Assembly (NCBI GenBank): GCA_977017645.1
Contig: OZ360246.1
Span: 27,528,001-27,592,000 of the forward strand
Source of the DNA: Torpedo marmorata
Taxonomy: Eukaryota
Reading direction: 5' to 3'
DNA length: 64,000 bases
Under the pieces are notes generated by a model. That model saw only the letters and a list, made by a program, of their open reading frames with translations, did no database searches and was not told where the DNA came from. The translations under genes were made by a program, and so were the position numbers. Positions 1-58,519 of the stretch are shown piece by piece (positions within the stretch are counted from its first letter, which is position 1; each line of letters starts with the position of its first letter).

Positions 1-325
1 AGCTTTAACATTTCCTCCCCCACTCCCCAAAATATTTTCTGGAAACCTTTGTGATTTTTGAATCAAATTTACAGCAATAGCGCATAGAAGCATGTGACCC
101 ACCAGGTCTGTCAGTAACGTCTGTCTGTAAATGTATGTTTGAATGGTGACGTAAGACTCAAATACAAAATTTAATAACATTTTAAAATTGGTCTCCTTTC
201 TCAAACACTTACTGTGTTGTGGCATCACTACCCAAACTGTTGTTCTTTCCCCAGAGAATTCTTTCCTTCTCTCTCCAACCCGATATAAATTTAACATATT
301 CCTAATTTTAGCGATCTTGTAGCAG

Positions 326-455
326 TTGATCTGCATAGGTTGGACGCAAAGCCAGTTTTATTTAGCGCTATGACTAAACGAAAGAGCATCTTCCAAGAAA
401 GATCACATTTTAAGATCGTATAGGGCATAAAGTGCTTGTTATTCCACTATTTTAA
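326..455. repeat. Left arm of inverted repeat flanking SPEN promoter/exon 1
   Basis: Reverse complement aligns to 1922-2086; 326-351 is a perfect 26-bp match to 2061-2086. Confidence 0.9.
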
Positions 456-469
456 GCACAGAGTAGTCT

Positions 470-1750
470 ACATCTCTGGTGTTCCGGCAGTGTCTCTACG
501 CTGCACTCCCTGTCAAGGCAGAGGCAGCACTGGCTGCCACAAAATGGCGGACTCTCCGGAACCTTCCATCGCCTTAAAATGGCGCCCGAGTGGAAAAGGG
601 GAGGGGGAGCAAAGTCAAGGGACAAAGGATTGAGAATGGACGATACTCCTGTTAAAGAAAACCCCACGAACGCAGCAGTTTTCTGATAAAGCTAGTGGTG
701 ACAAGCTCTTTTTGAAGGTTGTATTTCCTCATATCGGTCATTTCGGCGTTCAAGCCATCTAACAATCTTCCCATATCGTTCAGAACGTCCAGAATTTAGT
801 ATGAGTCGAAGGAGGCACTTATACACGGGTTAAACAGGTCTATTAAATGAAAATAGTGGATATCCCTGGAATTGCGCTCTCAGATTCCTCTCTATTCATC
901 GTGCTCCTGCGCCGACACCAGCCTTTCCAGAACTTTCCTCCCAGTCACTGTTGTAAGCTAAACACCAACTCGGCGCATTTGCGCAGCAAAACACTCCCAG
1001 TCCCTTTCTGCGCACGCGTATTTCTACTCCCGGCTCCTGCAGCGGTTGGAAACCCCCCCCCTTGCCAGGGCTGCATTTTCCGCGCATGCGTGGTTAACCC
1101 CGCTTCTTGCTCTGGGAGCAGAATGGTAAGACGACGTCACGCACGCGCAGTGGAGGTCCATTCTTTCGGCTGGGAAGTGGGAGTGGTGGGGGGGGGGAGG
1201 TGAGGAGGGAGCCAGGCGAGGATTTCTCAGCGCGTGCGCGTTGCGGCGTGGAGCCGAATCGACCCGGGAGTTTCGTGGCGCTTGCGCGCCCGCTGTGGCG
1301 GGTTCCGCGCATGCGTGATGCTGCTCAGTTTTCGGGTCTCGGGACGAACTGTTAGCGTCTTGGGGAAGAGAAAAAAAACGCGTCAGGTCGGGCGGCGCGA
1401 GCGAGTGTGTGTGTGTGCGTTAGCCTAATGGTGGGATTGTACCTCAAGGATTAACCCGGCCCTGGGGCCGGCACGATCCCGGACTTCCACACGCCGAAAA
1501 AAGGAGTCCCATGACTCGCTAAGAATGGTACGAGAAACCAGGCACCTCTGGGTGGGGAATTTGCCGGAAAATGTCCGCGAAGACAAGATTATCGAGCATT
1601 TTAAACGGTAAGTGGCCGCCCCCGCCCCCCACGAGATGTGGAGTAAACACTCTTTCCATGTATTATGGTGCGGGCCCGGCTGCGAGCCCGCAAAGGGGTG
1701 AACTGAAACCGGAGAAAGTGCCGGTGTCTTGCTGCAGCTGTGTGAGTGAA
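470..1750 (+). promoter_or_regulatory. SPEN: SPEN CpG-island promoter / 5' region
   Basis: CpG-dense ~900-1750; YY1-type AAAATGGCG at 541 and 576; NRF1-type GCGCATGCG at 1082 and 1308; CRE-like GACGTCA at ~1133; lies directly upstream of the SPEN ATG. Confidence 0.8.
1525..1607 (+). CDS. SPEN: SPEN coding exon 1 (start of RRM1)
   Basis: Translates MVRETRHLWVGNLPENVREDKIIEHFKR, the recognisable vertebrate SPEN N-terminus; 83 nt ending CG|gtaagt (phase 2). Confidence 0.97.
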
Positions 1751-1921
1751 AACACACACACACACACACACAAAGTTCACATCCTTCACTCCAGTAAAAG
1801 GGGTCACTGGCGGGCCCAGCAATATTCCTATTGTTGTGTGGCATTCTACAATATTGAAGCGATCTGCTGATACATGCTCATTAATTTCACCCTTCAGCGT
1901 TTTATTGCATAGAGAAGAACT

Positions 1922-2086
1922 TGAAAAATGAGATGGGACAAGCACGTTTTCTTATTTTAATTCTTGCCCTAAACCGATCGTGATTTGCCCTTTACGATTT
2001 TAAAATGTGATATTTCTTGGAAGATGCTATTTCGTTTCGCATAGTACTAAATAAAACGGTCTTTGCGTCCAACCTATGCAGATCAA
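1922..2086. repeat. Right arm of inverted repeat flanking SPEN promoter/exon 1
   Basis: 1984-2086 matches the reverse complement of 326-428 with few mismatches; weaker match continues at 1922-1945. Confidence 0.9.
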
Positions 2087-2390
2087 ATGGATATTTTTAA
2101 ATTGTGCATATTATATAATTAAAACGCAGTTTGCAATTAAATTAATGAATGTTGGACGTGTTAGTAGTTTGGAATGTTCCAGCCCCATGAGAGGGAAGGT
2201 TTGACTTGTGTTTGAGACACATGGGAGCTGTAATGGAGGATAGGGCTGTCTGTGGGAAATAGGACTGGGGGAGGGGAGCCCAACACATTTACTGATAGCA
2301 AAAGTCCTAACTGGCCCTTATCTGTGATCAGAAGCTGCTTGACCCGTTATTGTCAGAGAGAGAAAAAAAAACTTGCAGCCTCATGATAGA

Positions 2391-2633
2391 AGTAAAACAC
2401 GAAAAGTCTGCAGACACCGTGGTTGAAGTAAAAACACAATGCTGGAGAATCTCAGCATAGATCAAACAGGGTAGGTAAAGATACATAACCAACGTTTTGA
2501 GCTTGAGCCCTTCAAGGTATGAAGGGCTCTGCCTACATTTTGTTCATACCTTGATGAAGGGCTCAAGCCCGAAACGTTGGTGATGTATCTTTGCTATATA
2601 AATTACACTGCTGTTTCTCCAGCATTGTGTTTT
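2391..2633. mobile_element. Palindromic non-autonomous element (Penelope-like terminus derived) with hammerhead motif
   Basis: Arms AACACAATGCTGGAGAA...TTCTCCAGCATTGTGTT in inverted orientation; 14-bp flanking direct repeat agcctcatga(t/c)aga (2377-2390, 2634-2647); TTGATGA-A-GGGCTCAAGCCC-GAAACGTT at 2551-2578. Confidence 0.75.
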
Positions 2634-3409
2634 AGCCTCATGACAGACTTCTGTTAGCAGGAAGTATGTCACTAAAATGGTTTAAATTTAAAACAAAACG
2701 TTGATAGGAAGTTTTAGCTACTGCTTTGAAATACATTACAGTTGATCTGAGCAATAATGATCTTTCGAGTGTAGCTGCTGAGCTTCACAGTTTGTATCTT
2801 TTTAGAAAGATCCGAGTTGCAGTTCGAATTGTTTTTGTCAGTTTGGAATTTGAAAAAAATTATACCTTAATACATTGTACGAACATGGTTACGTGATGAA
2901 AGCTGGTTGCAAGTGTGCATGCTGTTTGTTTCCAACTTTAATTGTGTTTAAAACAGTGGTGGTATTGATGTAAAAGGAAATGATAAAATTGGGAAACTGA
3001 GCGGAGCGTGTGGTGCTGGCGTGAGTAAAATGGCGGACCCATTCTTTGCATCAAACCCCGCATTTGGCATTTGAAGCATGTACAGTACTCAGTCGGAGGA
3101 CTGTAGCAAAATCTAATTCACCATATTATGCATAATTATGTGATTTCAAAATGTTTAATAAATTGTTTTGAAAAACTTGCTTAAAGAGTCTCTAAATTTA
3201 AATTTGTCTTTAATCCGCATTAGTTTTTTAAAACATCTATAGCCAGAACTATTGGAAGATTTATCACAACTATTGGAAGTGCAGAAACTAAATCAATGGG
3301 GATATTATTTTAAACTAATGTGAAAAGGCTCATGAGTTATTTCCATGGAGGTATATTTATGAATTATAGAACGCAATAGGGATTTAACTCTGAAATCATT
3401 GCGATATTA

Positions 3410-3518
3410 AGTAAAAACACAATGCTGGAGAAACTCAGCAGGTCAAGCAGTGTACTTTAGATTGCAAAGATAAAGATAAATAACCAACGTTTCGGGCTTG
3501 AGCCCTTCATCAAGATAT
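3410..3518 (-). mobile_element. Single arm of the same family with hammerhead motif
   Basis: Same ACACAATGCTGGAGAAACTCAGCAGG head; minus-strand motif at 3486-3513; gatatta on both flanks. Confidence 0.7.
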
Positions 3519-5121
3519 GATATTAGGTACATCAGATTAATGGTTGACGGAAATATAACCATCTCAAGAAACTTATTGACTTGATCTGCAAGATTTTCTA
3601 CCTCGTGTTCAAAAAGCTGTATTTAAAGTCGTATTAATTTTGTCAAAAGGATGCAATATGCATTGTTCCAGCACGTCTCCGTCAGACGTTTCGATTCTCA
3701 TCAGGAGTAGGAGGCCATGTGCGGTGAAAAACAAAAGATAACAAGAGGAATCCAGTATAATTTGGTACATTCTATGTTTAGAGAAAGAATTTTAGTTATA
3801 AGCCCCTATCTTTTAGGTTGGTGATGAAGTTACAGTTGCTTAGTGATTTTTCAAAAGGACATTGAATTGTCAGCCTTAAGTTAGATCTAGTTATCAGTTT
3901 AGATTCAGTAGTATTGTAAGAGTTTTATCTAAAATCTCATATTAAGTCATAGATCATGCATTTAATGACTACGCATGGTCACTATGAAGATAAACAGGCG
4001 TTTTATTTGCCTTTTACAACCATTACATCGTGCTTTTTCAACATTAATGTCAAGGGTTTCTAGATTGCTTTACTCGTGTTGTAATTCTATTCCGTTTTTG
4101 CATTTGTATTTCAACGCATCCAGTACGTCATAACAATCTAAAGTATTTAATGACCAAAATGGTTACAAGAATCGAGTTTAGTTGCCGTTTGTAGAATATC
4201 TGGTGTCTACATTTATATTTAATTATAGAAGAGGGTTGTGTTTCTGATATAACAGTTTGAAATGCAAATAAGGCAGTTCCCACCCCTCCCCCACCGGAGA
4301 ACGCAAAATACGCGTAAGGGGGAGGGTGCAAAAGGTTTCAGATAGAAGCGATCTGGAACAGTGTTATACTTCAGGGGGAATGTCCAAATAAACCTATAGA
4401 TTGTGAAGCAAAACTCCAGCTAATTCATGGTGTTACAGTATTCAATTTTCGGTATCTTTTGTATTTGCACTATTTTCAGCGGGAGAATCATAAGGAAATC
4501 ATTAATATTTCTATGTTAAATAGCGTTAGATCGATACGTTTGTTTTCCGTCGTACACGCTTATATAATTGGGGAATAGTAAAAAAGTATAAACAAAGCGG
4601 GCGATGTTAGGTAGCTTGGATGCTTTTTCCAGCAAAAGGGAGAGTTGTCATTAAAATTCAAATCTTTTAAATTATATTGTCCACGCAGTGTTGTCATATG
4701 TTTGTGTGTATATATAAAAAAAATAGCCTAGTCTGGGCCATGAAGAGGGCGTGGCATCGTTCTGGTTTATTTTGCCAAAATAAGACTACTTTTATGAATA
4801 TAATTAAGACTCAATTGAAGTAACAGTCTAATTAGAACAATTATTAGTTAAGACTCAAGAGATTTAACATTTTCTGGAAATGTAATCAATCGATTTTAAT
4901 ACGCAATCAGGGTCAGGGTTTAATGATAGTTTGCACCTGTGATTTTAAAACAAAATACTTCCATATAATAAACATATGGAAGTTTCATCATATTGACTTT
5001 TTGTAATTTCATTTACGTTCTGACAGATATTTGAGTCAAATTCAAATTGGACATTTTCCATTAGTAATAGTAGTCATTAACTACTTTGATATATAATTTT
5101 CCCTCTGCTGTCATATGTATT

Positions 5122-8215: not shown

Positions 8216-8654
8216 TGTTTTTTTTATAATGCTCCTCTGTTCTTCTCATTTCACCAAACCTGTGGTTATTTGCCCAAATTTCTCCCGATGTGACTAGTTG
8301 CTAAACTTTGTTTGATATTGCTGTTGAACACCATTGGTTATTTTTATTATATTAAAGATGCGGAATGAATGCAAATTGTTGTGTTGTTTCTTCCAATGCC
8401 ATTATTTACCATTGCCATGCTTTGCTTGAAATAAAAGACAGGCAGCATAGATTTGTTATCAGAAAATTGCATCCAGCTAATTTGTATTCTCTTTTCATAT
8501 GGCAAGAGCAAAGGATGGCAGAAATATTGAATGTTAAAATTGCAATTTGAAGTGTTACAGCCAAAGGTGACATTTGTGCTAACAAATTAAGTTTTGCCAC
8601 TGTTGTCAAGTTAGAGAAAATTGACAAGAAATGTACATGAATTGAGTTGAGTAA

Positions 8655-8860
8655 TACACAAAAGTGCTGGAGAAACTCAGCAGGTAACGCAGCATCTATA
8701 GAAAGTAAAGGGTAACTGATGTTTTGGGTCTGAGCCCTTCATCAAAGTATGAGCAAAATCATAACCTTCACCATGGGCTCGGGCCCAAAATGTTGGTTAT
8801 CCTTTACTTCCTATAGATGCTGTGTTACTTGCTGAGTTTCTCCAGCTCTTTTGTGGATTG
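8655..8860. mobile_element. Palindromic element, same family as 2391-2633 (degenerate)
   Basis: CACAAAAGTGCTGGAGAAACTCAGC...GCTGAGTTTCTCCAGCTCTTTTGTG inverted arms. Confidence 0.75.
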
Positions 8861-14504: not shown

Positions 14505-15675
14505 AGAGGTGCAGTATTGAAAGAGACCCTTCAACCCCACCAAGTCTGTGCTGACCATCAACCCTATTTACACTAATCTTACATCAATCCCAACTTTTGT
14601 TCTCCCCACATTCTCAATTACCCCTAGATACTATCACTCATTTACACACGAGAGGCAATCTAGAATACAGGTAGTCCTCAACTTACAACCTACGCGAGTT
14701 ACGTCCACCCGCACATACGACCGAATTTTTTTTGTATTAAAAGTACTGTATATATGTTGAGATTCTTTATTACAGTATTTACTTGAAGTTCATAAAAATC
14801 GTATCACGAAAAAAGCGGGGTCGCGCTAAATCGGGGTTTCAATAAAGCGTTGTTGCAGTTGAAATTAAAACACAAATGCTGGATCAATGGCCTCTTCATT
14901 ACCCATAATCCCCCACGCAGCTGGAAACGCTCTGCGTTTCTCTGGCACTGGCAGAGCGGTTCCAGCTGCGTGGGGGATTATGGGTAACGAAGACGTGTTC
15001 GGGGCGTCGGGAGCTCGGATGGATGGGCGGCCCAGGCAAGGATCTGCGGTCGGGGGCGTCGGGAGCTCCGGGTGGCTGAGGCGTCGGTAGCTCGCATGGG
15101 TGGGTGATCGGGGCGTCTTGTGCTCCGATGAGCGGGTGGCTAGTGCGTCGGGAGCTTGGATGGGCAGGCGGTCGGGGCGTCAGGAGCTCGGATGGGTGGG
15201 CGGTTGGAGCCAAAAATAGGGGCTGGGGGTGAAAGGTATCCGTTTATGGATCACTGATGGTTGAAATGGAGAAAGGAAGAGCTGTTCCATAAGGATGGGT
15301 TTCCCTTGAATTAGCTAGGACCAGAATCCAAGTAAATACAACTAGAGCTGGAAACAAGGCTTTAAACTGAAAATAATGTTGATGGTGGTGGTAGTGGGGG
15401 TGGTAGCAGATATGCGTGGTAGGATGAATCCGACTTACGACCACTCCTTCAGTCCCAATTACGGTCATAATTCGAGGACTACCTGTATTCAATTAATCCA
15501 CCAACCAGCGCATCTTATGCATGTGAGGGAGAAATGGAGAACTGCTGAGGGTGGAGGGGAGAGCAGGATTGACACACGGGTTCCATTTGCAGAATCCACA
15601 CAAACAGCACCCAAGGTCAGGATAAATTGTTGCTCTCTGAAGCTATATGGCAGTACCGCTATCTGTGCTACCAAT
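14505..15675 (-). mobile_element. Old tRNA-derived V-SINE (HE1-like), split by a Tigger MITE
   Basis: Halves 14505-14667 and 15486-15675 join into one SINE resembling the copy at 63285-63527. Confidence 0.6.
14668..15485. mobile_element. Tigger/pogo MITE with internal G-rich tandem repeat
   Basis: TIRs CAGGTAGTCCTCAACTTACAACC / GGTCATAATTCGAGGACTACCTG, TA TSD; GGTCGGGGCGTCGGGAGCTCGGATGGG-type repeats at ~14995-15205. Confidence 0.85.
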
Positions 15676-26600: not shown

Positions 26601-27092
26601 ACCCAGACTGAAGAATTTCCAAGGAATTTGATTATATACTTTATTTTCTTTCCTTTGTTGCTCATATAGATTTAATGGGAATTATTGTTTCTGTTTTTAT
26701 ATTAGATAATCTAAGAGCATTTAGTTAAATCATGGATGTTCATCCTCACACACAGCACTAAAATAAAACACAAAACTCAAGAAATACTCAGTAGGTAAAA
26801 ACTATGGAGAGAGAAACCGAGTTAGTGTATCAGGTTAATGGCCTTTGATTAAAGCTGGGGATGTGTTACTGGTAAAACAGATTTAAGATGCAAAAAATTG
26901 TTTGCTGTAAGAGAAATAACATAGGGGAATGTCTGTGATTAGGTGAAGGAAGGGCAGGAGCGATTAAATGATTTAAAGGGTAATGGAACCAAGTAAAAGT
27001 GGGTAATAAAGACATTACACTGGTACCCCACTGAGAGCTCTCTGGAACATTGATTCATTATAGTGTTTTTGGTTCTCCAGTAGGAACATTCA

Positions 27093-27906
27093 CAGGTACA
27101 TAATCTTTTATCCGAAACCCTTGGGACCAGACACTTCGGAATTCGGAATTTTTCGGATAATAGAATAATAGTAACAGCGGTACGTTAAGTAATTGTGCTG
27201 ATTTCAGATTCGCGTAAAACAAAGACACACTCCAACTAGAAGGGTCTCTGGACGGGGAGGAGGGGGTGGTGGCGGCGCTGGAGGGGGGGTGGTGGCGGCG
27301 CTGGACGAGGAGGGGGGGGGGGTTTGCGGCCGCGCTGGGCGGGGTGGTAAATGATTGTTTCATGACAATCAAACCAGTCAGTGGTATACGTTCACATCTT
27401 CGTTGTCGAACCCACTCAATCAGCACACGGTCAAGATCTTTGTTTTTTGCCCTATGCAATGTTTTCCTATTTTTCATTAGTTTCTGGTCATCACTGTCAC
27501 TGTAAAACTTCAACAACTTATCTTTCTGCTTCTTTAAGTCATATATGGTGGTAGTTTCCACACCATAATCTTCATTAAGACGCCGCACAGATACACCACG
27601 ATCAAGCTTCGGAAATAACTCTACTTTCTGCGCTATCGATAATGACAGACGCTTCCTTTTCTGCTTCTCTCTGTTACCCATAGGGGACTCTGCAGCTCTT
27701 TTTGACATTTTCACAGTCTTCAAAGTCCGTGAGCAGCAGAGGCACGTCTGACTGATAGGAGCACTGAGACACGGCGCTGGACGGGGGTGGGTCGCGTCAG
27801 GTCATGTTTGGCGCCATACGCGAGCTTTGGTGTGCAGATGACATCCATGGAAAAAATGTTAGGTTTTCGGAGTTTTCAGAATTTCGGATTAAAAATTATG
27901 TACCTG
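27093..27906 (-). mobile_element. Internally deleted Tigger transposon retaining the transposase DNA-binding N-terminus
   Basis: TIRs CAGGTACATAATCTTTTATCCGAAA / TTTCGGATTAAAAATTATGTACCTG; ORF 27723-27058 encodes KRKRLSLSIAQKVEL...YGVETTTIYDLKKQK...LDRVLIEWVRQRR (psq/CENP-B-type HTH); no DDE domain. Confidence 0.9.
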
Positions 27907-28394
27907 TATTTTTAAAAGCATTGCTCGTTCTTCACACTGCTGTGCTGGGAATCTTGTGAGACTCTCTGCCCTCCTCCAGTGCACCTCCAACAATGAACCC
28001 CTCGGCAGCTCAGTGTGGTTTTGGGGGGCTTGGTGAGTGGTGTAACTGCTAAGTGCTGAGGCATGAGCATCAGGGTTGCACATTGGTTGGCTCAATTAAT
28101 GTGGGCTAGAGCAGCACCTTCTCCATGTGTGTACAGACTGCCTAGGTCGTATAATTTCCCTCGCTGTCCTCTGTTGAATGTGATGGAAACTGCTGTCTCC
28201 CTTTCTCTTTGTTTGTCTGCACTGATTTCCCTGGCCAAGAGAAGGGAGACTACTGTTTTCCTCATTTTTGGACACAATGAAAGAGACCAGATGATCCAAA
28301 TGGTGTCTCAGCAATGGAGCAGGTTTTGCCAGTTGCCAGCATGGTTGTAGGTATCAGCCAAAATGCAAGTCAGAGCCCCATATCTCAATTAAAA

Positions 28395-28620
28395 AGCACA
28401 AATGCTGGAGAAACTCAACAGGTCAAACAGTGTCTTTTATGTAGCAAATACATAACCGACGTTTCGGGCTTGAGCCCTTCATCAAAGTATGAGAAAATGC
28501 CGGCAGGCGACCGAACAAAAGAGTGAGGGGTGGTGGCAAAGGCAGGAGATGATAGGTGGAGAAAGGAGGGAGGGGACAGCAGCAAAGAGGGGGAGGAGGG
28601 ATGGCTGGGTGGGTGCACTG
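28395..28620 (-). mobile_element. Penelope-like terminus fragment with hammerhead motif
   Basis: Same family head; minus strand TTGATGAAGGGCTCAAGCCCGAAACGTC at 28485-28458, adjoining a purine-rich tract. Confidence 0.75.
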
Positions 28621-34032: not shown

Positions 34033-34359
34033 NNNNNNNNNNNNNNNNNNNNNNNNNNNNNNNNNNNNNNNNNNNNNNNNNNNNNNNNNNNNNNNNNNNN
34101 NNNNNNNNNNNNNNNNNNNNNNNNNNNNNNNNNNNNNNNNNNNNNNNNNNNNNNNNNNNNNNNNNNNNNNNNNNNNNNNNNNNNNNNNNNNNNNNNNNNN
34201 NNNNNNNNNNNNNNNNNNNNNNNNNNNNNNNNNNNNNNNNNNNNNNNNNNNNNNNNNNNNNNNNNNNNNNNNNNNNNNNNNNNNNNNNNNNNNNNNNNNN
34301 NNNNNNNNNNNNNNNNNNNNNNNNNNNNNNNNNNNNNNNNNNNNNNNNNNNNNNNNNNN
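34033..34359. other. Assembly gap (N run)
   Basis: 327 consecutive N. Confidence 1.
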
Positions 34360-35745: not shown

Positions 35746-35900
35746 AGTATTTTTAAAAATGTGTTCATTGGGAATTTAGCTCATTTAATGTAGTTTTAAC
35801 AAGGAACTAAATCATTGTAAACTTTTGAGAGGCCTAGTGTAAAAATGCAGAGCTAAGGCTAGCGTAAGGCAGGGAATTTAAAATTTTAATTGGATTAGAG

Positions 35901-36275
35901 CAGTGGTTTTCAAACTGCCCCCCAAAACTCACATTCCACCTTAAGCAATCCCTATGCCATAAGTGCTCTGTGATTAGTAAGGGATTGCTTAAGGTGGTAT
36001 GTGAGTGGAAAGAAAAAGTTTGAAAACCACTGTTTTAATCGTACCTAATTGACTCGTTATGTGCACGGTTTCATAACTCCAAAGGAAATGGGCCAATGAC
36101 AATTTTTCTCAAGCAAAATATTTCAGTAACAATTGGGTCAAGAGCAGTGGTTCTCAACCTTCCCTTCCCACTCACATACCACCTTAAGCAACCCCTTACT
36201 AATCACAGAGCACTTATGGCATAGGGATTGCTTAAGGTGGAATGTGAGTTTTGGGGGGCAGTTTGAAAACCACTG
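35901..36275. mobile_element. Composite hAT (Charlie-like) MITE
   Basis: CAGTGGTTTTCAAAC termini; perfect 8-bp TSD GATTAGAG (35893-35900, 36276-36283); two ~130-bp inverted units. Confidence 0.9.
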
Positions 36276-52907: not shown

Positions 52908-55900
52908 TTACAAATTTAATCTCATTATTTGGGTATACGGGCGCCATATTTGTAAAAAAGTAGAATATTTATTCCTCAAATTATATGTAATTTTTTCTAA
53001 AGGAATATAACTTTGAATTTCAGCATGCCACCTTTGCATATCCAAAGATGTATCGGATTTCCAAGTCATAGCAATACATTTCCTCACTACTGCTAAAGCT
53101 AATTTAACAAATACCAATTGATAATTTGATAGCTTCAATTTAGGTCTTGCACCCTCGATATTCCCTAAAAGAGCTAAATCGGGGGTTTGTGGAAATACAA
53201 TTCCTGTAACTTGTTCTAAAAAATTTCGTATATCTAACCAAAAGGTTTTTATCTTGGGCCAAGACCAAGTTGAATGTATAAAAGAACCTACATCTTCACC
53301 ACATCTAAAACATTGGTCAGATAATTCTGGTTTTATTTTATGTAGTTTCTGTGGTGTTAAATATAATTGATGCAAAAAATTATATTGGACTAATCTATAT
53401 CTTACATTTATAGTATTAGTCATAGAATCTGTACATAGATTTTCCCATAATTGTTGATCAATTGTAATATTTAAATCTGTTTCCCATCTCTGCTTTGATC
53501 TATTTAACCCTTGTTTAGGAGCTCTAGCTTGTTGTAGTTCATAAATCTTAGAAGTAAATTTTTTAATAATTCCTCTCCTAATCAAAAGTTCTACTTCATT
53601 ACATCTAGGTAAAGACATAGTTGGTCCCAATTTATCTCTCAGATATGCTTTTAATTGAAAATAACAAAAAAAAGTATTTTGTGATTATGGCATATTTGTT
53701 CCTCAACTGTAAAAACAACATTAATTGACCTGTTTCATAACATTCTTCAAGATTTACAATCCCATTACGGTGCCAAATATTCATAAATTGATTATCTTTT
53801 GAAAAAGCTATAAATGGATTTTGATTTAGTGGCGTTTTAGGCGATATGGATCCCTTTATTCTAATTTCATCTTTTATTTTATTCCAAATATTAAGTAGGT
53901 GTTTCAATAATGGTGTATCTTTAGCAGCAGTTAATAATTTCGGTTCCCATTTATAAATAAAATCTTCTGCTATCCATTCTCCTATCTTGTTCAGTTCTAT
54001 ATTTACCCACGCTACTTTTGTTTCTTTGAAAAAAGATGCAAGAAATCTCATTTGAACAGCTCGATAATAATTTTTAAAATTAGGAAGTTGTAAACCTCCT
54101 AATTTGTATTTCCAAGTTAATCTCTCCATAGAAACTCTTGACATTTTATCTTTCCATAGAAATTTTCTTACAATATTTATTTAATTCTAGAAAAAAATTT
54201 CTGAGGGATTGAAATGGGTAATGTTTGAAAGATATATTGTATTCTTGGAAATATATTCATCTTTATACAATTAACTCTTCTAACTAAGGTTATAGGTAAA
54301 TTAATCCATTTTTAAAAATCTTCATCAATTTTTAAAAATAGTAATGAATAATTCAATTTGTATAAATTTTTCAAATTGCTATCTGAACGTATACCTAAAT
54401 ATTTAATACCCTCTTTTGGCCATTTAAACTGTCTGACAATGTGTATAATCACCTTCCGTCAATGACATTATTTCACTTTTATCCCAATTTATTTTATAGC
54501 CCGAAACCTTTCCATATTCCTCCAATTGAATATATAATCTTTGCAAAGATATTTCAGGATCAGTCAAATATATTAAAATATCATCTGCAAATAAACTGAT
54601 TTTATGTTCTTCTTGACCTATCCTAAAACCCTTAATTTGTAAATCAGAACGGATTTTCTGGGCAAGTGGTTCTATGGCTAGAACAAATAAAGCTGGGGAT
54701 AAAGGACATCCTTGTCGACTAGATCTTGTCAAATTAAATGGCATAGACATTTGTCCATTAGTTACTACTTTGGCTTTAGGGTTATTATATAATGCTTTAA
54801 TCCAATTTAAAAAATTAGTCCCAAATATAAATTTCTCTAATACTTTAAACAAAAAATCCCAAGATAATCTATCAAATGCTTTTTCTGCATCTAATGCAAC
54901 TGTAACACTCAATTCATCTATTTTCTGAGCTAGATGGATAATACTTAATAATCGAGCTACATTTTCTGATGCTTGCCTTTTTTTTACAAAACCGGTTTGA
55001 TCCATATTTATTAATTTAGGTAACAATTTATTCATTCTATTTGCTAAAATTTTCGCAACTATTTTATAATCTGTATTTAATAATGAAATAGGTCTGTAAG
55101 ATGAGGGTTTTAAAGGATCTCTGCCTTTTTTTGGAATCACTGTAATTATAGCCGTCTAAAATGTTTCTGGAAGAGTATGGGTTTCCATAGCCTGTTATAA
55201 TACTTGCATGAATATAGGAATTAACAAATCTTTAAATTCTTTATAGAATTCAGGTGGAAATCCATCTTCTCCAGGTGATTTATTACTTTGCAAAGAAGTC
55301 ATAGCTTCCTTTACTTCTACCTCAGTAATTATCTGTTTGCTCCTGTATATTTAATCTGGGTAATGTTATGTGTGATAGATAAGTATTTATCTTATTCTCA
55401 TCTCTTAAAGACTCAGAGCTATATAATTTTGAATAAAATTTTTTAAAAGACTCATTTATTTCTTGAGATTTATATGTCACTACAAATGTCTTTTTTGATT
55501 GCATTGATTGTTCTTGAAATCTGTTCCGCCTTTAATTGCCAAGCTAATACCTTATGTGATCTCTCACCTCGTTCGTAATATCTTTGTTTCATTCTTATTA
55601 TTGCTTTTTCAGTTGTATACGTTTGTAACGTATTATATTAAAAAATTTTATTAATCGTATCTACGTTTATCTTAAGGAGAAATTTGTAGGTCTTTCTCTA
55701 ATATTGTAATTTCTTTTTCTAATTGATCTGTCTCCCTCGTATATTCTTTTTTAATTTTAGAAGTAAAACTTATGATTTGGCCTCTTAAATACGCTTTTAA
55801 AGTGTCCCATATTAAAAATGTATCATTTACCGAATTCAAATTTGTATCACAAAATAACTGAATTTGTGTTCGAACAAACTCACAAAAATCTTTTCTTTTC

Positions 55901-56661
55901 AACATCAAAGAGTTGAGTCTCCACCTATAAATCGATTTCTCCTTATCATGCATTTCCATCGTTATTAATAAAGGCGAATGGTCAGATAAAATCCTTGGTT
56001 TATAGTCCGCTTCTACAACCCTGGCTTGCATTTGGGCGGAAATCAAAAATAAATCAATTCTTGAATAAGAGTCAAATCTAGTCGAATAAAATGAATAATC
56101 TTTTTCTCTAGGGTGAATCCTTCTCCATAAATCTATTAAATTAAAATCTCTCATCAAATCCAATGTTACCTTAGCTGCTTTCGTTCTTCTTATTACCCGT
56201 GTAGATCTATCTAACAATGGATCTAAACAGAAATTAAAGTCTCCTCCCATTAAAATATTATCATGTGCCTGTGCTAGATTAAAAAAATATCTCGAATGAA
56301 TTTCTCATCGTCAACATTCGGGGCATACAAATTTTTAAAAGTCCACATCTCAGAATATATTTGACAATGTACCATTACAAATCTCCCTGCTGGATCTGTA
56401 ACAACATTCTGAACTTTAATTGGAAGATTCATTTTTATCAAAATCACCACACCTTGATTTAGAATTAAATGAAGAGGACATTTGATATCCCACCCAATCC
56501 CTTTTTAATTTTAAGTGTTCTTTTTCAGTCAAATGTGTTTCTTGAAGAAAGGCTACATAAACTCCAGGTTTCTTAATATATGTTAATATTCTCTTCCTTT
56601 TTACGGGCCCATTTAACCCATTAACTTTAAAATTTAAAAACTTTATTAATTTATTCATCAA
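52908..56661 (-). pseudogene. L1 ORF2 (endonuclease + reverse transcriptase), frameshifted
   Basis: NGLNGPVKR, FLQETHL, MGGDFN, YSRIDLF, LSDHSP, YRPISLLNTDYKI, LDAEKAFD, RQGCPLSP, LFADD, GGLQLPN, CFRC; several stops and frameshifts. Confidence 0.95.
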
Positions 56662-57134
56662 AATATATTAAAAAAATATGTAACACCTCCATGCAGTAAA
56701 TAACTTTATATGTCTGAGCGTACTTCCTCAAGCAATCCAAAAAAAAGAAAAAAATAATTAAATACAAATATAAGAGATATATAATTCTACAGTTATACTT
56801 ATAACAATAACAAAAACCCTCCCAGTAAGTGTTGTCTAGTTTGGCAACAACTAACTCCCTCTATTTTACGGGCTGTGACTAAAGTCACAAAAACACACAT
56901 AATCCCACAGTAATCAACACCCCCCCCACTCCTCCCAACTCCCTTGGTATTATTTTTATATCTTAATCACTTCATTAATTCAATTTAAACAATTAATTAA
57001 TTAATCAACTATATTTAACAAATTATCCCAAAGATCAAGAAAAAAAGAATAGAAAGAAACAAAATATTACTTCAATTTCTTCCGTCTCAATTATACAATT
57101 TGAATAAAAAATCAGAAAGGAAAAAAAAATTAAA

Positions 57135-58331
57135 TCAGTCTAGCAAATTCACATTGGTCGCAGCTGGCTGTATTGCAGGAAGGTTCCGAGCATATTCCTC
57201 CGCTTCATAAGGATTGTTGTAAAATTTATTTTGTTCTCCCGTAACAAAATCCTTCAAAGTTGCAGGATGTTGAAGAATAAATCTATATCCTTTGTCATAA
57301 AGAATCTTCTTAACTGGGTTAAATTCTTTTCTTCTCCTTAAAAGATCTTCACTCATGTCGAGGTAAAACAAAATACTATCCCCTTCCCATTGTATTGGAC
57401 CATTTCTGTCCCTCGCTCCTTTCAGTGCCAGACTAAGAACTTTCTCTCTATCTTGATAGCGGAGGAACTTTATCAGTATAGAACGTGGTTTCTGATTAGA
57501 AGAAGGTTTTGATCTGAGAGCTCCATGTGCTCTTTCCACTTCAATTGGCTATGGAAAGTTTTCTTCTCCCAGTACTTTAGGGAACCACTTTTGAAAAAAG
57601 TTAATCACATCCAAACCTTCTTTTCCTTCTGTAAGACCTACTGTTTTAATATTGTTTCTTCTGCTAAAGTTCTCCAAAATATCAACTTTTTCAACAAGTT
57701 TTTGATTTATTGATACCAAACCAGTGATTGTATCTTCTGTATAAGAAACCCTTTGCTCAACTCGTTCTACATCTTGTGTTCCAGTCATTCTTTCTTCCAT
57801 TTTATCCAATCTTTTCTTCATTTTATTTACAACTTCTAATACTTTATTAGTTTCTGCCTTTCCATCTTTAAATCCCTTTTCCATTTGTACTTCCATTTGT
57901 ACTTGCAATGCTTTAATTTGCTGCGTTATAATTATAGTTTGAGGACTTAATTGAGTATCCTCCATTACCTCCTCTTGTATCTCTTCTTCATCTTCTGCCT
58001 CTTCTAATGAACCTCTTCTGGATCCCATCTCTTCCTCCGGCGCTGAAGACTCCGACTTCTCAGGGGTTTGCTGCACTCCCAGTAATGCTTTGGGCATTAC
58101 AGCAGTGCGCATGCGCGGTTTCTCGCGCGTACGCATATGCATTGCACTTCCGGGTTCCCCACCGACGTCTTCTCTCCGTGGTAATGGCTGAGAGATGCCG
58201 GCAGAGGTCCCTTCCATAGGGTCAAAGAATCGGGTGGCAGCACGAACTCCAGTCCCTTGTTTCAACGTTGCGGTAGGCCTAACTTCTTTCTTCTTCTTTT
58301 CTTCCCGTCGGGTTCCAGGAGTCTGTAGTCG

Positions 58332-58366
<35 letters not shown>

Positions 58367-58372
58367 AGGCGT
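57135..58372 (-). pseudogene. L1 ORF1 (disrupted)
   Basis: Coiled-coil, then LENFSRRNNIKTVGLTEGKEG, ERAHGAL...PRSILIKFLRYQDREKVL; broken near 57545. Confidence 0.85.
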
Positions 58373-58519
58373 TTTGGAGGTAAAGTAGATATATTTAAAT
58401 ATCGATTAAAGATATATATAAAGTTAAAACAGTACTTATTTTGGACTTTTTTTACTAATTTCCCAAGGGAGTCAGAAGCTTACGTGTTGATCCTACGGCA
58501 TCACGTGACGTCCCCCCTG

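What the first reader, a model, noticed from the sequence alone, without database searches (positions are those of the whole stretch)
326..2086. Inverted repeat brackets the whole SPEN promoter and exon 1
Seen: 326-428 and 1984-2086 are reverse complements with few mismatches (26 bp perfect), and similarity extends weakly inward to 455/1922. The arms are not found elsewhere in the window and do not look like the local TE families. They enclose ~1.5 kb with the YY1 sites, the CpG island and the start codon. Inference: an upstream divergent transcript and SPEN intron 1 would both carry the same ~100-nt RNA element. Alternatively the arms are an inversion-breakpoint duplication, could allow promoter inversion by recombination, or are kept similar by gene conversion. 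A transcript starting upstream of 326 could pair the arms and loop out exon 1.
Basis: partly seen in the sequence, partly recalled or inferred. Interest (0 to 1): 0.7.

Follow-up and report, generated by a model that had tools for sequence, protein, structure and literature searches.

The report
Decaying inverted duplication around SPEN promoter
A 102-base piece of DNA sits in two mirror-image copies on either side of the start of the gene-silencing gene SPEN; it looks like an old local copying accident that is now wearing away, though one copy lies in a newly seen RNA made in the opposite direction.

Summary
The inverted repeat is real: arms 326-427 and 1986-2086, 92 of 102 columns identical, two copies in the window. 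It brackets the promoter and exon 1 of SPEN. Contigs of four public runs show it is no assembly artefact and no dispersed repeat, and show no inversion. New: a probable RNA run gives a spliced divergent transcript whose first exon (213-938, minus strand, GTAAGT donor) contains the left arm, so both transcripts carry the element in the same sense and cannot pair through it. The arms look like a decaying duplicate: 9% diverged, no fold, no Rfam match, no conserved reading frame; the left arm changes at the background rate, a relative lacks about 11 bases of the right arm, and both datable changes in this lineage break the symmetry. Best reading (0.6): a one-off templated inverted copy from the divergent exon into SPEN intron 1. 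Faint mirror similarity beyond the arms leaves room for an older repeat plus later conversion (0.2). Boldest reading (0.07): each arm holds the first AATAAA met in its direction, a possible paired early-termination signal. Mostly ordinary.

The parts
207..212 (-). 5' splice donor GTAAGT of the divergent transcript; the only GTRAG-type site on the minus strand in 1-2300
   Evidence: three X2 contigs end their match exactly at 213, and loose letters run on beyond it
213..938 (-). First exon (as far as assembled) of a spliced divergent, apparently non-coding transcript; contains the left arm; true start not known
   Evidence: X2 contig 9, 724 nt, 5 other letters, depth 60; strand inferred from the donor; no long or conserved ORF
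326..427 (+). Left arm of the inverted repeat (to 429 in the state of relatives); probable template copy
   Evidence: present in organisms B and C, its outer 38 bases also in E
357..362 (-). AATAAA hexamer in the left arm; first one on the minus strand leftwards of the promoter
   Evidence: use as a poly(A) signal not shown
541..583 (+). Two YY1-like motifs (541, 576); motif recalled, not tested for binding
960..1760 (.). CpG island / bidirectional promoter with four NRF1-like motifs (1010, 1082, 1231, 1307; motif recalled)
1525..1607 (+). Coding part of SPEN exon 1 (start of RRM1), followed by donor GTAAGT at 1608
1920..1984 (+). Faint, gap-rich mirror of 456-402, with a partial tandem second copy of the arm's inner end at 1965-1984
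   Evidence: 1-4 of 3000 nulls; partial copy 17-25 of 3000 against the left arm; not significant; organism C lacks about 18 letters in 1921-2000
1986..2086 (+). Right arm of the inverted repeat, in SPEN intron 1; probable derived copy
   Evidence: present in organisms A and C, about 11 letters missing in C
2050..2055 (+). AATAAA hexamer in the right arm; first one on the plus strand in the window, 442 bases after the SPEN exon 1 donor
   Evidence: use as a poly(A) signal not shown
2095..2204 (+). Possible old mirror of 311-201 (62 of 112 columns); uncertain
   Evidence: significant only for some windows and scores
15818..16139 (+). SPEN exon 2 (identifies the gene; end given is the end of the open frame)

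Best explanation
A single, old, local templated duplication. About 102-130 bases of the first exon of the divergent transcript (326-427, perhaps to 456) were copied in inverted orientation into SPEN intron 1, 1.56 kb away, most likely when a replicating or repairing polymerase switched template at this open CpG-island promoter and came back (the partial second copy at 1965-1984 fits a second, slipped round of copying). The copy was tolerated because it fell in an intron, became fixed before the window's lineage split from organism C, and both arms have drifted since. It does nothing by being a repeat: the two transcripts carry it in the same sense and cannot pair through it. SHOWN: the arms, their uniqueness, their presence in relatives, co-linear orientation, the divergent exon. 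INFERRED: the direction left to right, the template-switch mechanism, neutrality.
For: Two copies only in the window and no contig from another locus on either arm in 3 of 3 DNA-type runs, which did pick up 30-45-base hits elsewhere in the stretch (92%, 55% and all of X1, X3, X8 read). Sharp ends, no target-site duplication by inspection. Arms differ at 9 of 101 aligned sites, three times the window-to-C distance on the left (37 in 1178), so no recent homogenisation. Left arm in C: 3 changes in 102 (2.9%) against 1.8-4.4% in the seven other segments counted. Right arm in C: about 11 letters missing in 2001-2080, none in the bins of the left arm (depth arithmetic; sums agree with 69 gap letters and a 61-letter net loss). 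Sites 366 and 1985, where relatives show the older letter, paired before and do not pair now. Left 184-363 is co-linear in the most distant organism E, so the left copy is old at least in its outer 38 bases. No fold (z -0.3 to +1.9), no Rfam or tRNA match on the arms. Inverted templated insertions occur as germline variants (PMC8421209, passages) and are fixed in ape genomes, up to 128 bases (PMC7954356, passages).
Against: The pre-insertion state was not seen: organism E has no cover on the right arm at depth 2-3, which proves nothing. Junction microhomology cannot be read after this much decay. The published short-range classes look only tens to hundreds of bases away (100 bp in PMC8421209), not 1.56 kb. 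Faint mirror similarity outside the core would, if real, need two events. In E, 364-525 is matched by 164 unlike letters, unexplained. Most of C's differences in the right arm were not printed (3 of 55 for that contig), so co-changes of the arms could not be counted. The neutrality argument rests on few sites.
Confidence: 0.6

Rival explanations
1. Two layers: an ancient inverted duplication of about 250 bases (201-456 against 1920-2204, including the divergent donor region) decayed to 55-65% identity, and one later gene-conversion or template-switch tract between the old arms reset the central 102 bases, slightly out of register, leaving the partial tandem copy at 1965-1984.
For: Outer flanks align at 62 of 112 columns on nearly the arm's diagonal (1-36 of 1000 nulls in 5 of 6 schemes); anchored pair-HMM at 125 bases beats 150 of 150 nulls; inner flank with long gaps beats all but 1-4 of 3000; the partial copy matches the left arm better than the right (17 against 991 of 3000). 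Template switching homogenises existing inverted-repeat arms (PMC8604942, abstract). E's length-keeping unlike stretch 364-525 could be the trace of such a tract.
Against: Windows were picked after looking; with wider windows 5 of 6 schemes lose significance (65-163 of 1000); 4 of 5 outer lengths and 5 of 5 inner lengths do not beat all nulls, and the best log-odds is only +2.3 bits; ungapped scan gives p 0.047 and 0.053 for the two windows next to the arms, among 37 non-core windows. E's break points (363, 526) do not match the arm ends, and a like break occurs at 988-1069.
Confidence: 0.2
2. The arms are kept by selection as a shared signal in both transcripts, most plausibly a promoter-proximal poly(A)/termination signal: each arm holds the first AATAAA met by polymerase in its direction, about 850 bases either side of the promoter centre, so early cleavage in SPEN intron 1 would attenuate SPEN and the same signal would compete with splicing of the divergent RNA.
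For: First AATAAA on plus at 2050 and on minus at 357-362, both in the arms, in an 11-base run identical in both; the outer third of the left arm with this hexamer lies in the block that aligns in E. Early termination at first-intron sites beyond CpG islands, held back by U1, is established, and the plant spen-family protein FPA limits its own level by premature polyadenylation (PMC7471841, passages and a reference title).
Against: AATAAA occurs 1.3-1.5 times per kb in this window, so one in a given 102 bases is a 1-in-7 chance, and two copies of one duplicate are one event. The RNA contig reads through the left hexamer to the donor. Left arm changes at background rate; right arm has lost about 11 letters in C (whether the hexamer is among them is not known). 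A hexamer needs no 102-base arm.
Confidence: 0.08
3. Two independent insertions of a low-copy mobile fragment (or a pair of transposon ends) that happen to face each other across the promoter.
For: The window is rich in small fold-back elements with ~100-base arms and 10-30% divergence; both arms begin at the same base.
Against: No third copy in the window or among contigs laid from three DNA-type runs at 80% likeness; no match to the window's repeat families; no target-site duplication by inspection; no exact match of a 22-base piece in viral or metagenome contigs. No whole genome was held and only 55% of X3 was read.
Confidence: 0.06
4. The arms pair in RNA or DNA and act structurally: a read-through transcript spanning both forms a 102-bp duplex that loops out exon 1, or recombination between them flips the promoter.
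For: On one strand the arms would pair at -143 kcal/mol; they bracket promoter and exon 1 exactly.
Against: The two transcripts that are supported carry the element in the same sense (-33 kcal/mol between them). No strand-changing joint in 4 of 4 runs. A flip would point the divergent exon, without its donor at 212, into SPEN intron 1 and cut exon 1 off from exon 2 (inference from the anatomy). No transcript spanning both arms was seen, though contigs cannot exclude one.
Confidence: 0.05
5. Assembly artefact.
For: None found.
Against: X3 contigs span each arm with both flanks (1-1178, 1263-2398); X2 spans the left arm; X1 covers the right arm in two pieces; the arms differ at 10 columns.
Confidence: 0.01

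Closest known systems
Templated inverted insertions from polymerase template switching (MMBIR-type insertions, PMC8421209; short-range template switches in apes, PMC7954356)
   Same: An inverted copy of a nearby unique sequence, about 100 bases, no rearrangement of what lies between, hint of a second slipped copy.
   Different: Template is 1.56 kb away, beyond the 100 bases searched in the first paper and the tens to hundreds of bases of the second; old and 9% decayed; junctions and the empty site were not seen.
Non-repetitive inverted duplicates of vertebrate genomes (PMC5398296, abstract, methods and one results section)
   Same: Two reverse-complementary arms in unique DNA; such pairs number 0.4-5 million per genome, 0.6-0.8 per kb even outside repeats.
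   Different: Arms of 102 bases are in the longest class there (80% are 36 bases or shorter) and the 1.56-kb spacer is beyond the 1-kb limit used; here the arms lie in two different transcripts, so no hairpin RNA is expected.
Divergent long non-coding RNAs at promoters of transcription regulators (PMC3882496, abstract); human SPEN-AS1 / FLJ37453
   Same: A spliced transcript leaves a CpG-island promoter head-to-head with a transcription regulator. A human SPEN-AS1 on chromosome 1 (PMC13102300, passages) and FLJ37453 linked to SPEN on chromatin (10.1101/331256, passages) are in print.
   Different: That SPEN-AS1 and FLJ37453 are one divergent RNA is recalled, not read; no sequence comparison with the human RNA was made, so only position is shared; later exons and coding status here are unknown.
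Conversion-maintained palindromes of sex chromosomes (search listing)
   Same: Inverted arms around a spacer.
   Different: Those arms are kilobases long and over 99% alike; these are 102 bases and 90% alike, and are losing symmetry.
Premature polyadenylation in first introns; FPA autoregulation in Arabidopsis (PMC7471841, passages)
   Same: A first-intron AATAAA just past the CpG island, in a spen-family gene.
   Different: Only the hexamer is shown here; no cleavage, no autoregulation, no conservation beyond close relatives.

Membership tests
Templated inverted insertion (template switch / MMBIR type) | Insert is an inverted copy of a nearby unique template | tested here: met
Templated inverted insertion (template switch / MMBIR type) | Insert absent from the orthologous site of an outgroup | tested here: inconclusive
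   Organism E has no cover at 1761-2080 at depth 2-3; a hole proves nothing
Templated inverted insertion (template switch / MMBIR type) | Microhomology at the junctions | not testable with these tools
   Needs the empty site; junctions have decayed
MMB-TI as defined in PMC8421209 | Template within 100 bases of the insert | tested here: not met
   1558 bases between the arms; so it works like one but is not filed as one
Dispersed transposon or MITE | Further copies in the genome | tested here: not met
   None in the window; none among contigs laid from X1, X3, X8; whole genome not held
Dispersed transposon or MITE | Target-site duplication at the outer ends | tested here: not met
   By inspection of the flanks at 323-326 and 2086-2089
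Conversion-maintained palindrome | Near-identical arms | tested here: not met
   92 of 102 columns
Conversion-maintained palindrome | Arms change together across species | tested here: inconclusive
   2 of 2 datable changes in the window's lineage break pairing; partners of C's two own changes (329, 350) were not printed
Invertible promoter / inversion-breakpoint duplication | Spacer found in both orientations, or inverted against relatives | tested here: not met
   No strand-changing joint in 4 of 4 runs; co-linear contigs across the arms; contigs drop rare forms, long reads not seen
Structured non-coding RNA (snoRNA, miRNA, tRNA-like) | Match to a family model | tested here: not met
   Rfam to E 5: only a repeat hairpin at 2472-2596, far under its gathering score; no tRNA
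Structured non-coding RNA (snoRNA, miRNA, tRNA-like) | Fold more stable than shuffles | tested here: not met
   z -0.10, -0.32, +1.87, +1.89 for both strands of both arms
Divergent long non-coding RNA | Spliced transcript antisense from the shared promoter | tested here: met
   One run, RNA status a guess, strand inferred from the GTAAGT donor at the exact contig boundary
Divergent long non-coding RNA | No protein-coding frame in the whole transcript | tested here: inconclusive
   Exon 1 only: 45-codon ORF has no homologue; the ORF from 336 gets a stop in C; later exons lie outside the window
Promoter-proximal poly(A) site | Canonical hexamer in the transcribed sense | tested here: met
Promoter-proximal poly(A) site | Cleaved or polyadenylated 3' ends behind the hexamer | not testable with these tools
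   Only contigs were served

The most novel reading that the evidence does not exclude
The duplication gave SPEN and its divergent RNA the same promoter-proximal termination module: the first AATAAA in each direction sits in the arms, so one factor (possibly SPEN itself, as its plant relative FPA does for its own transcript) could throttle both transcripts at once, and occasional conversion between the arms keeps the two modules matched. A mirror-built bidirectional attenuator at a master silencing gene.
Probability: 0.07. Interest if true: 0.7.

Novelty: new member of a known kind. Interest (0 to 1): 0.22.

Why it matters
If the best reading holds, this is a tidy, datable example of a kilobase-range templated inverted copy fixed beside the promoter of an essential gene, with no sign of function: useful for mutation biology, not surprising. 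The side result, a spliced divergent RNA at the SPEN promoter in this lineage, in the position recalled for human SPEN-AS1, could point to a long-lived promoter arrangement at the gene that carries out Xist silencing. Only if the arms prove to be a shared termination signal would it open a real question, namely how SPEN dosage is set.

Tried and rejected
No whole genome was held, so copy number could not be counted directly. Run search: 16 runs listed, no RNA holder on record; 4 of the 16 were laid. Holes in cover, which prove nothing: X1 over 1-480 (left arm), X8 over 1761-2080 (right arm), X2 over 961-2400 (SPEN exon 1; a filter drops human-like records). Exact 22-base arm pattern: 0 hits in metagenome contigs and 0 in viral contigs. 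Rfam, tRNA scan and single-strand folds: nothing on the arms. The 45-codon ORF 428-294 on the minus strand that spans the left arm: no homologue among proteins of 24-79 residues; its frame is stopped after 19 codons in the right arm. PDB sequence search with exon 2: no hit. Bacterial promoter/terminator scan of 200-600: nothing, and not apt for a vertebrate. The 30-letter loose end beyond 213 is not in the window, as expected for an exon further upstream. Mirror symmetry of the whole promoter: 4 of 37 non-core windows under p 0.05, three of them at GC-rich palindromic motifs: rejected. The 26-bp perfect run as a sign of conversion: rejected. Earlier findings of the scan: four look-ups, nothing. 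Literature: searches found no paper on an inverted repeat at a SPEN promoter or on a SPEN-divergent RNA in sharks; only open-access full text was searched and no supplements were read.

Full report
1. The observation. The repeat finder, a pairwise alignment and BLAST all show inverted arms at the stated place. The core is 326-427 against 1986-2086: 92 identical columns, 9 mismatches, 1 gap, with 1558 bases between the arms. BLAST with 7-letter words finds the partner at E 8e-35 and nothing else in the 64 kb better than E 0.13. The 26-base perfect run at the outer end is real but expected: with 10 differences placed at random, a run of 26 or more appears in 45% of trials. The enclosed gene is SPEN: exon 2 (from 15818) matches Spen/MINT proteins at up to 95%, and exon 1 (1525-1607) and exon 2 each match consecutive parts of an RRM, both below Pfam's cut-off taken alone. 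The spacer holds a CpG island and YY1-like and NRF1-like motifs (motifs recalled).

2. Edges. It improves when one sees that 1965-1984 is a partial second copy of the arm's inner end, closer to the left arm than to the right (17 against 991 of 3000 nulls); with cheap long gaps, 456-402 aligns to 1920-1984 better than all but 1 and 4 of 3000 matched window segments. I also found a faint outward mirror, 201-311 against 2095-2204, 62 of 112 columns. It passes 5 of 6 scoring schemes in the window chosen after looking and 1 of 6 in a wider one; an anchored pair-HMM beats all 150 nulls at one of five lengths, with only +2.3 bits; an ungapped scan gives p 0.047. Both flanks are hints, not findings.

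3. Relatives. No genome was held. Sixteen public runs hold part of the stretch; I laid four, at 80% likeness, on 1-2400. All are contigs. (a) Organism C (X3) has both arms in place: one contig spans 1-1178 (37 other letters), another 1263-2398 (55). Organism B spans the left arm, organism A covers the right arm in two pieces. The repeat is therefore no artefact and is older than the split from C. (b) No joint that changes strand is listed in any of the four, and in the more distant organism E one contig joins 184-363 to 526-865 in the window's orientation: no inversion. (c) No contig from another locus lies on either arm in X1, X3 or X8 (92%, 55% and all of each run read), although 30-45-base hits from other loci were picked up at 1168-1223 and 2113-2153: not a dispersed repeat. 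(d) X2, guessed to be RNA, gives a 724-base contig over 213-938 and two more that share 213-242 and run on with unlike letters. The window reads GTAAGT on the minus strand right at that boundary, the only such site on that strand in 1-2300, while DNA run X3 goes on co-linearly. This is a spliced divergent transcript whose first exon holds the left arm; one study, strand inferred from the donor, start unknown. Its exon has no conserved frame: the 45-codon ORF has no homologue and the ORF from 336 gains a stop in C.

4. Are the arms kept? The left arm differs from C at 3 of 102 sites, inside the 1.8-4.4% range of the neighbouring segments (36 of that contig's 37 differences were printed). The depth table implies about 11 letters missing from C's right arm in 2001-2080 and none in the bins of the left arm; the row itself was among those not printed, but the bin sums agree with the contig's 69 gap letters and 61-letter net loss. 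At 366 (B and C) and 1985 (A and C) relatives show the letter that pairs with the other arm and the window does not: 2 of 2 datable changes break the symmetry. C's own changes at 329 and 350 cannot be judged, as only 3 of 55 differences of its right-hand contig were printed. Arm-to-arm distance (9%) is about three times the distance to C and about that to E in alignable blocks (6-9%). Neither arm folds better than shuffles or matches Rfam or a tRNA. Against a simple story: in E the inner 64 bases of the left arm fall in a 162-base stretch matched by 164 unlike letters, and E has no cover on the right arm.

5. How it most likely arose and what it does. Best reading (0.6): one templated inverted copy of part of the divergent exon into SPEN intron 1, by a polymerase template switch during replication or break repair, tolerated in the intron and decaying since. 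Such insertions are known as germline variants (PMC8421209, passages) and as fixed differences among apes, up to 128 bases (PMC7954356, passages); both papers look at shorter distances, so this works like that class without meeting its stated range. Inverted duplicates in unique DNA are common in vertebrates, though mostly far shorter (PMC5398296, abstract, methods and one results section). Because the arms flank a bidirectional promoter, both transcripts carry the stretch in the same sense: they cannot pair through it (-33 kcal/mol against -143 for arms on one strand). Rival (0.2): an older, longer mirror with one later conversion tract (template switching evens out existing arms: PMC8604942, abstract). 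Rival (0.08): a selected shared signal. The one candidate I found is AATAAA: it is the first such hexamer in each direction from the promoter (2050 plus; 357-362 minus). Early termination at first-intron sites past CpG islands is established, and the plant spen-family protein FPA limits itself that way (PMC7471841, passages and a reference title). But the hexamer occurs 1.3-1.5 times per kb here, and the RNA contig reads through it. Mobile-element pair 0.06, structural pairing or flipping 0.05, artefact 0.01.

6. Known systems and novelty. Divergent long RNAs are typical of promoters of transcription regulators (PMC3882496, abstract). A human SPEN-AS1 and an FLJ37453 tied to SPEN are in print (PMC13102300 and 10.1101/331256, passages); that they are one divergent RNA is my recall. 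Sex-chromosome palindromes (search listing) are far longer and over 99% alike. Searches found no report of this repeat; only open-access text was searched, no supplements were read. The scan's earlier notes held nothing.

7. Verdict. Observation confirmed in its core, partly in its edges; interpretation partly supported. A real, unique, old inverted duplicate around the SPEN promoter, most likely a mutational scar, with a newly seen divergent spliced RNA. New member of a known kind; interest 0.22. Boldest reading not excluded: a mirrored early-termination module for both transcripts, probability 0.07, interest 0.7 if true.

Noticed in passing
window 213-938, minus strand: Spliced divergent transcript at the SPEN promoter; two different continuations beyond the donor (contigs of depth 257 and 64) suggest alternative second exons or alleles.
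   Followed up: partly
window 364-525: In organism E this stretch is matched by 164 unlike letters between two well-aligned blocks, although organism C differs at only 4 of the 162 sites; a like break lies at 988-1069. Unexplained.
   Followed up: partly
window 184-363: Block around the divergent donor aligns in the most distant organism laid (11 other letters in 180), while the 132 letters of that contig further out do not: the donor region looks constrained.
   Followed up: partly
window 3021-3036: A GTGAGT donor-like site fused to a third YY1-like motif in SPEN intron 1, in a locally GC-richer patch; possible conserved element or alternative exon end.
   Followed up: no
window 2431-2633, 8653-8859, 3409-3520, 28387-28506: A family of ~200-base fold-back elements with ~100-base arms and half-copies; the hairpin at 2472-2596 gives a spurious MIR4208 match. 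Other fold-back elements at 14893-14993 and 35888-36275.
   Followed up: no
window 27061-27801, minus strand: Open frame of 247 residues that reads like the DNA-binding start of a Tigger/pogo transposase (label recalled, no search run).
   Followed up: no
window 52911-58394, minus strand: Long, frame-broken LINE with ORF1-like, endonuclease-like and reverse-transcriptase-like pieces in a SPEN intron (labels recalled from the translations).
   Followed up: no
window 34033-34359: Assembly gap of 327 N.
   Followed up: no
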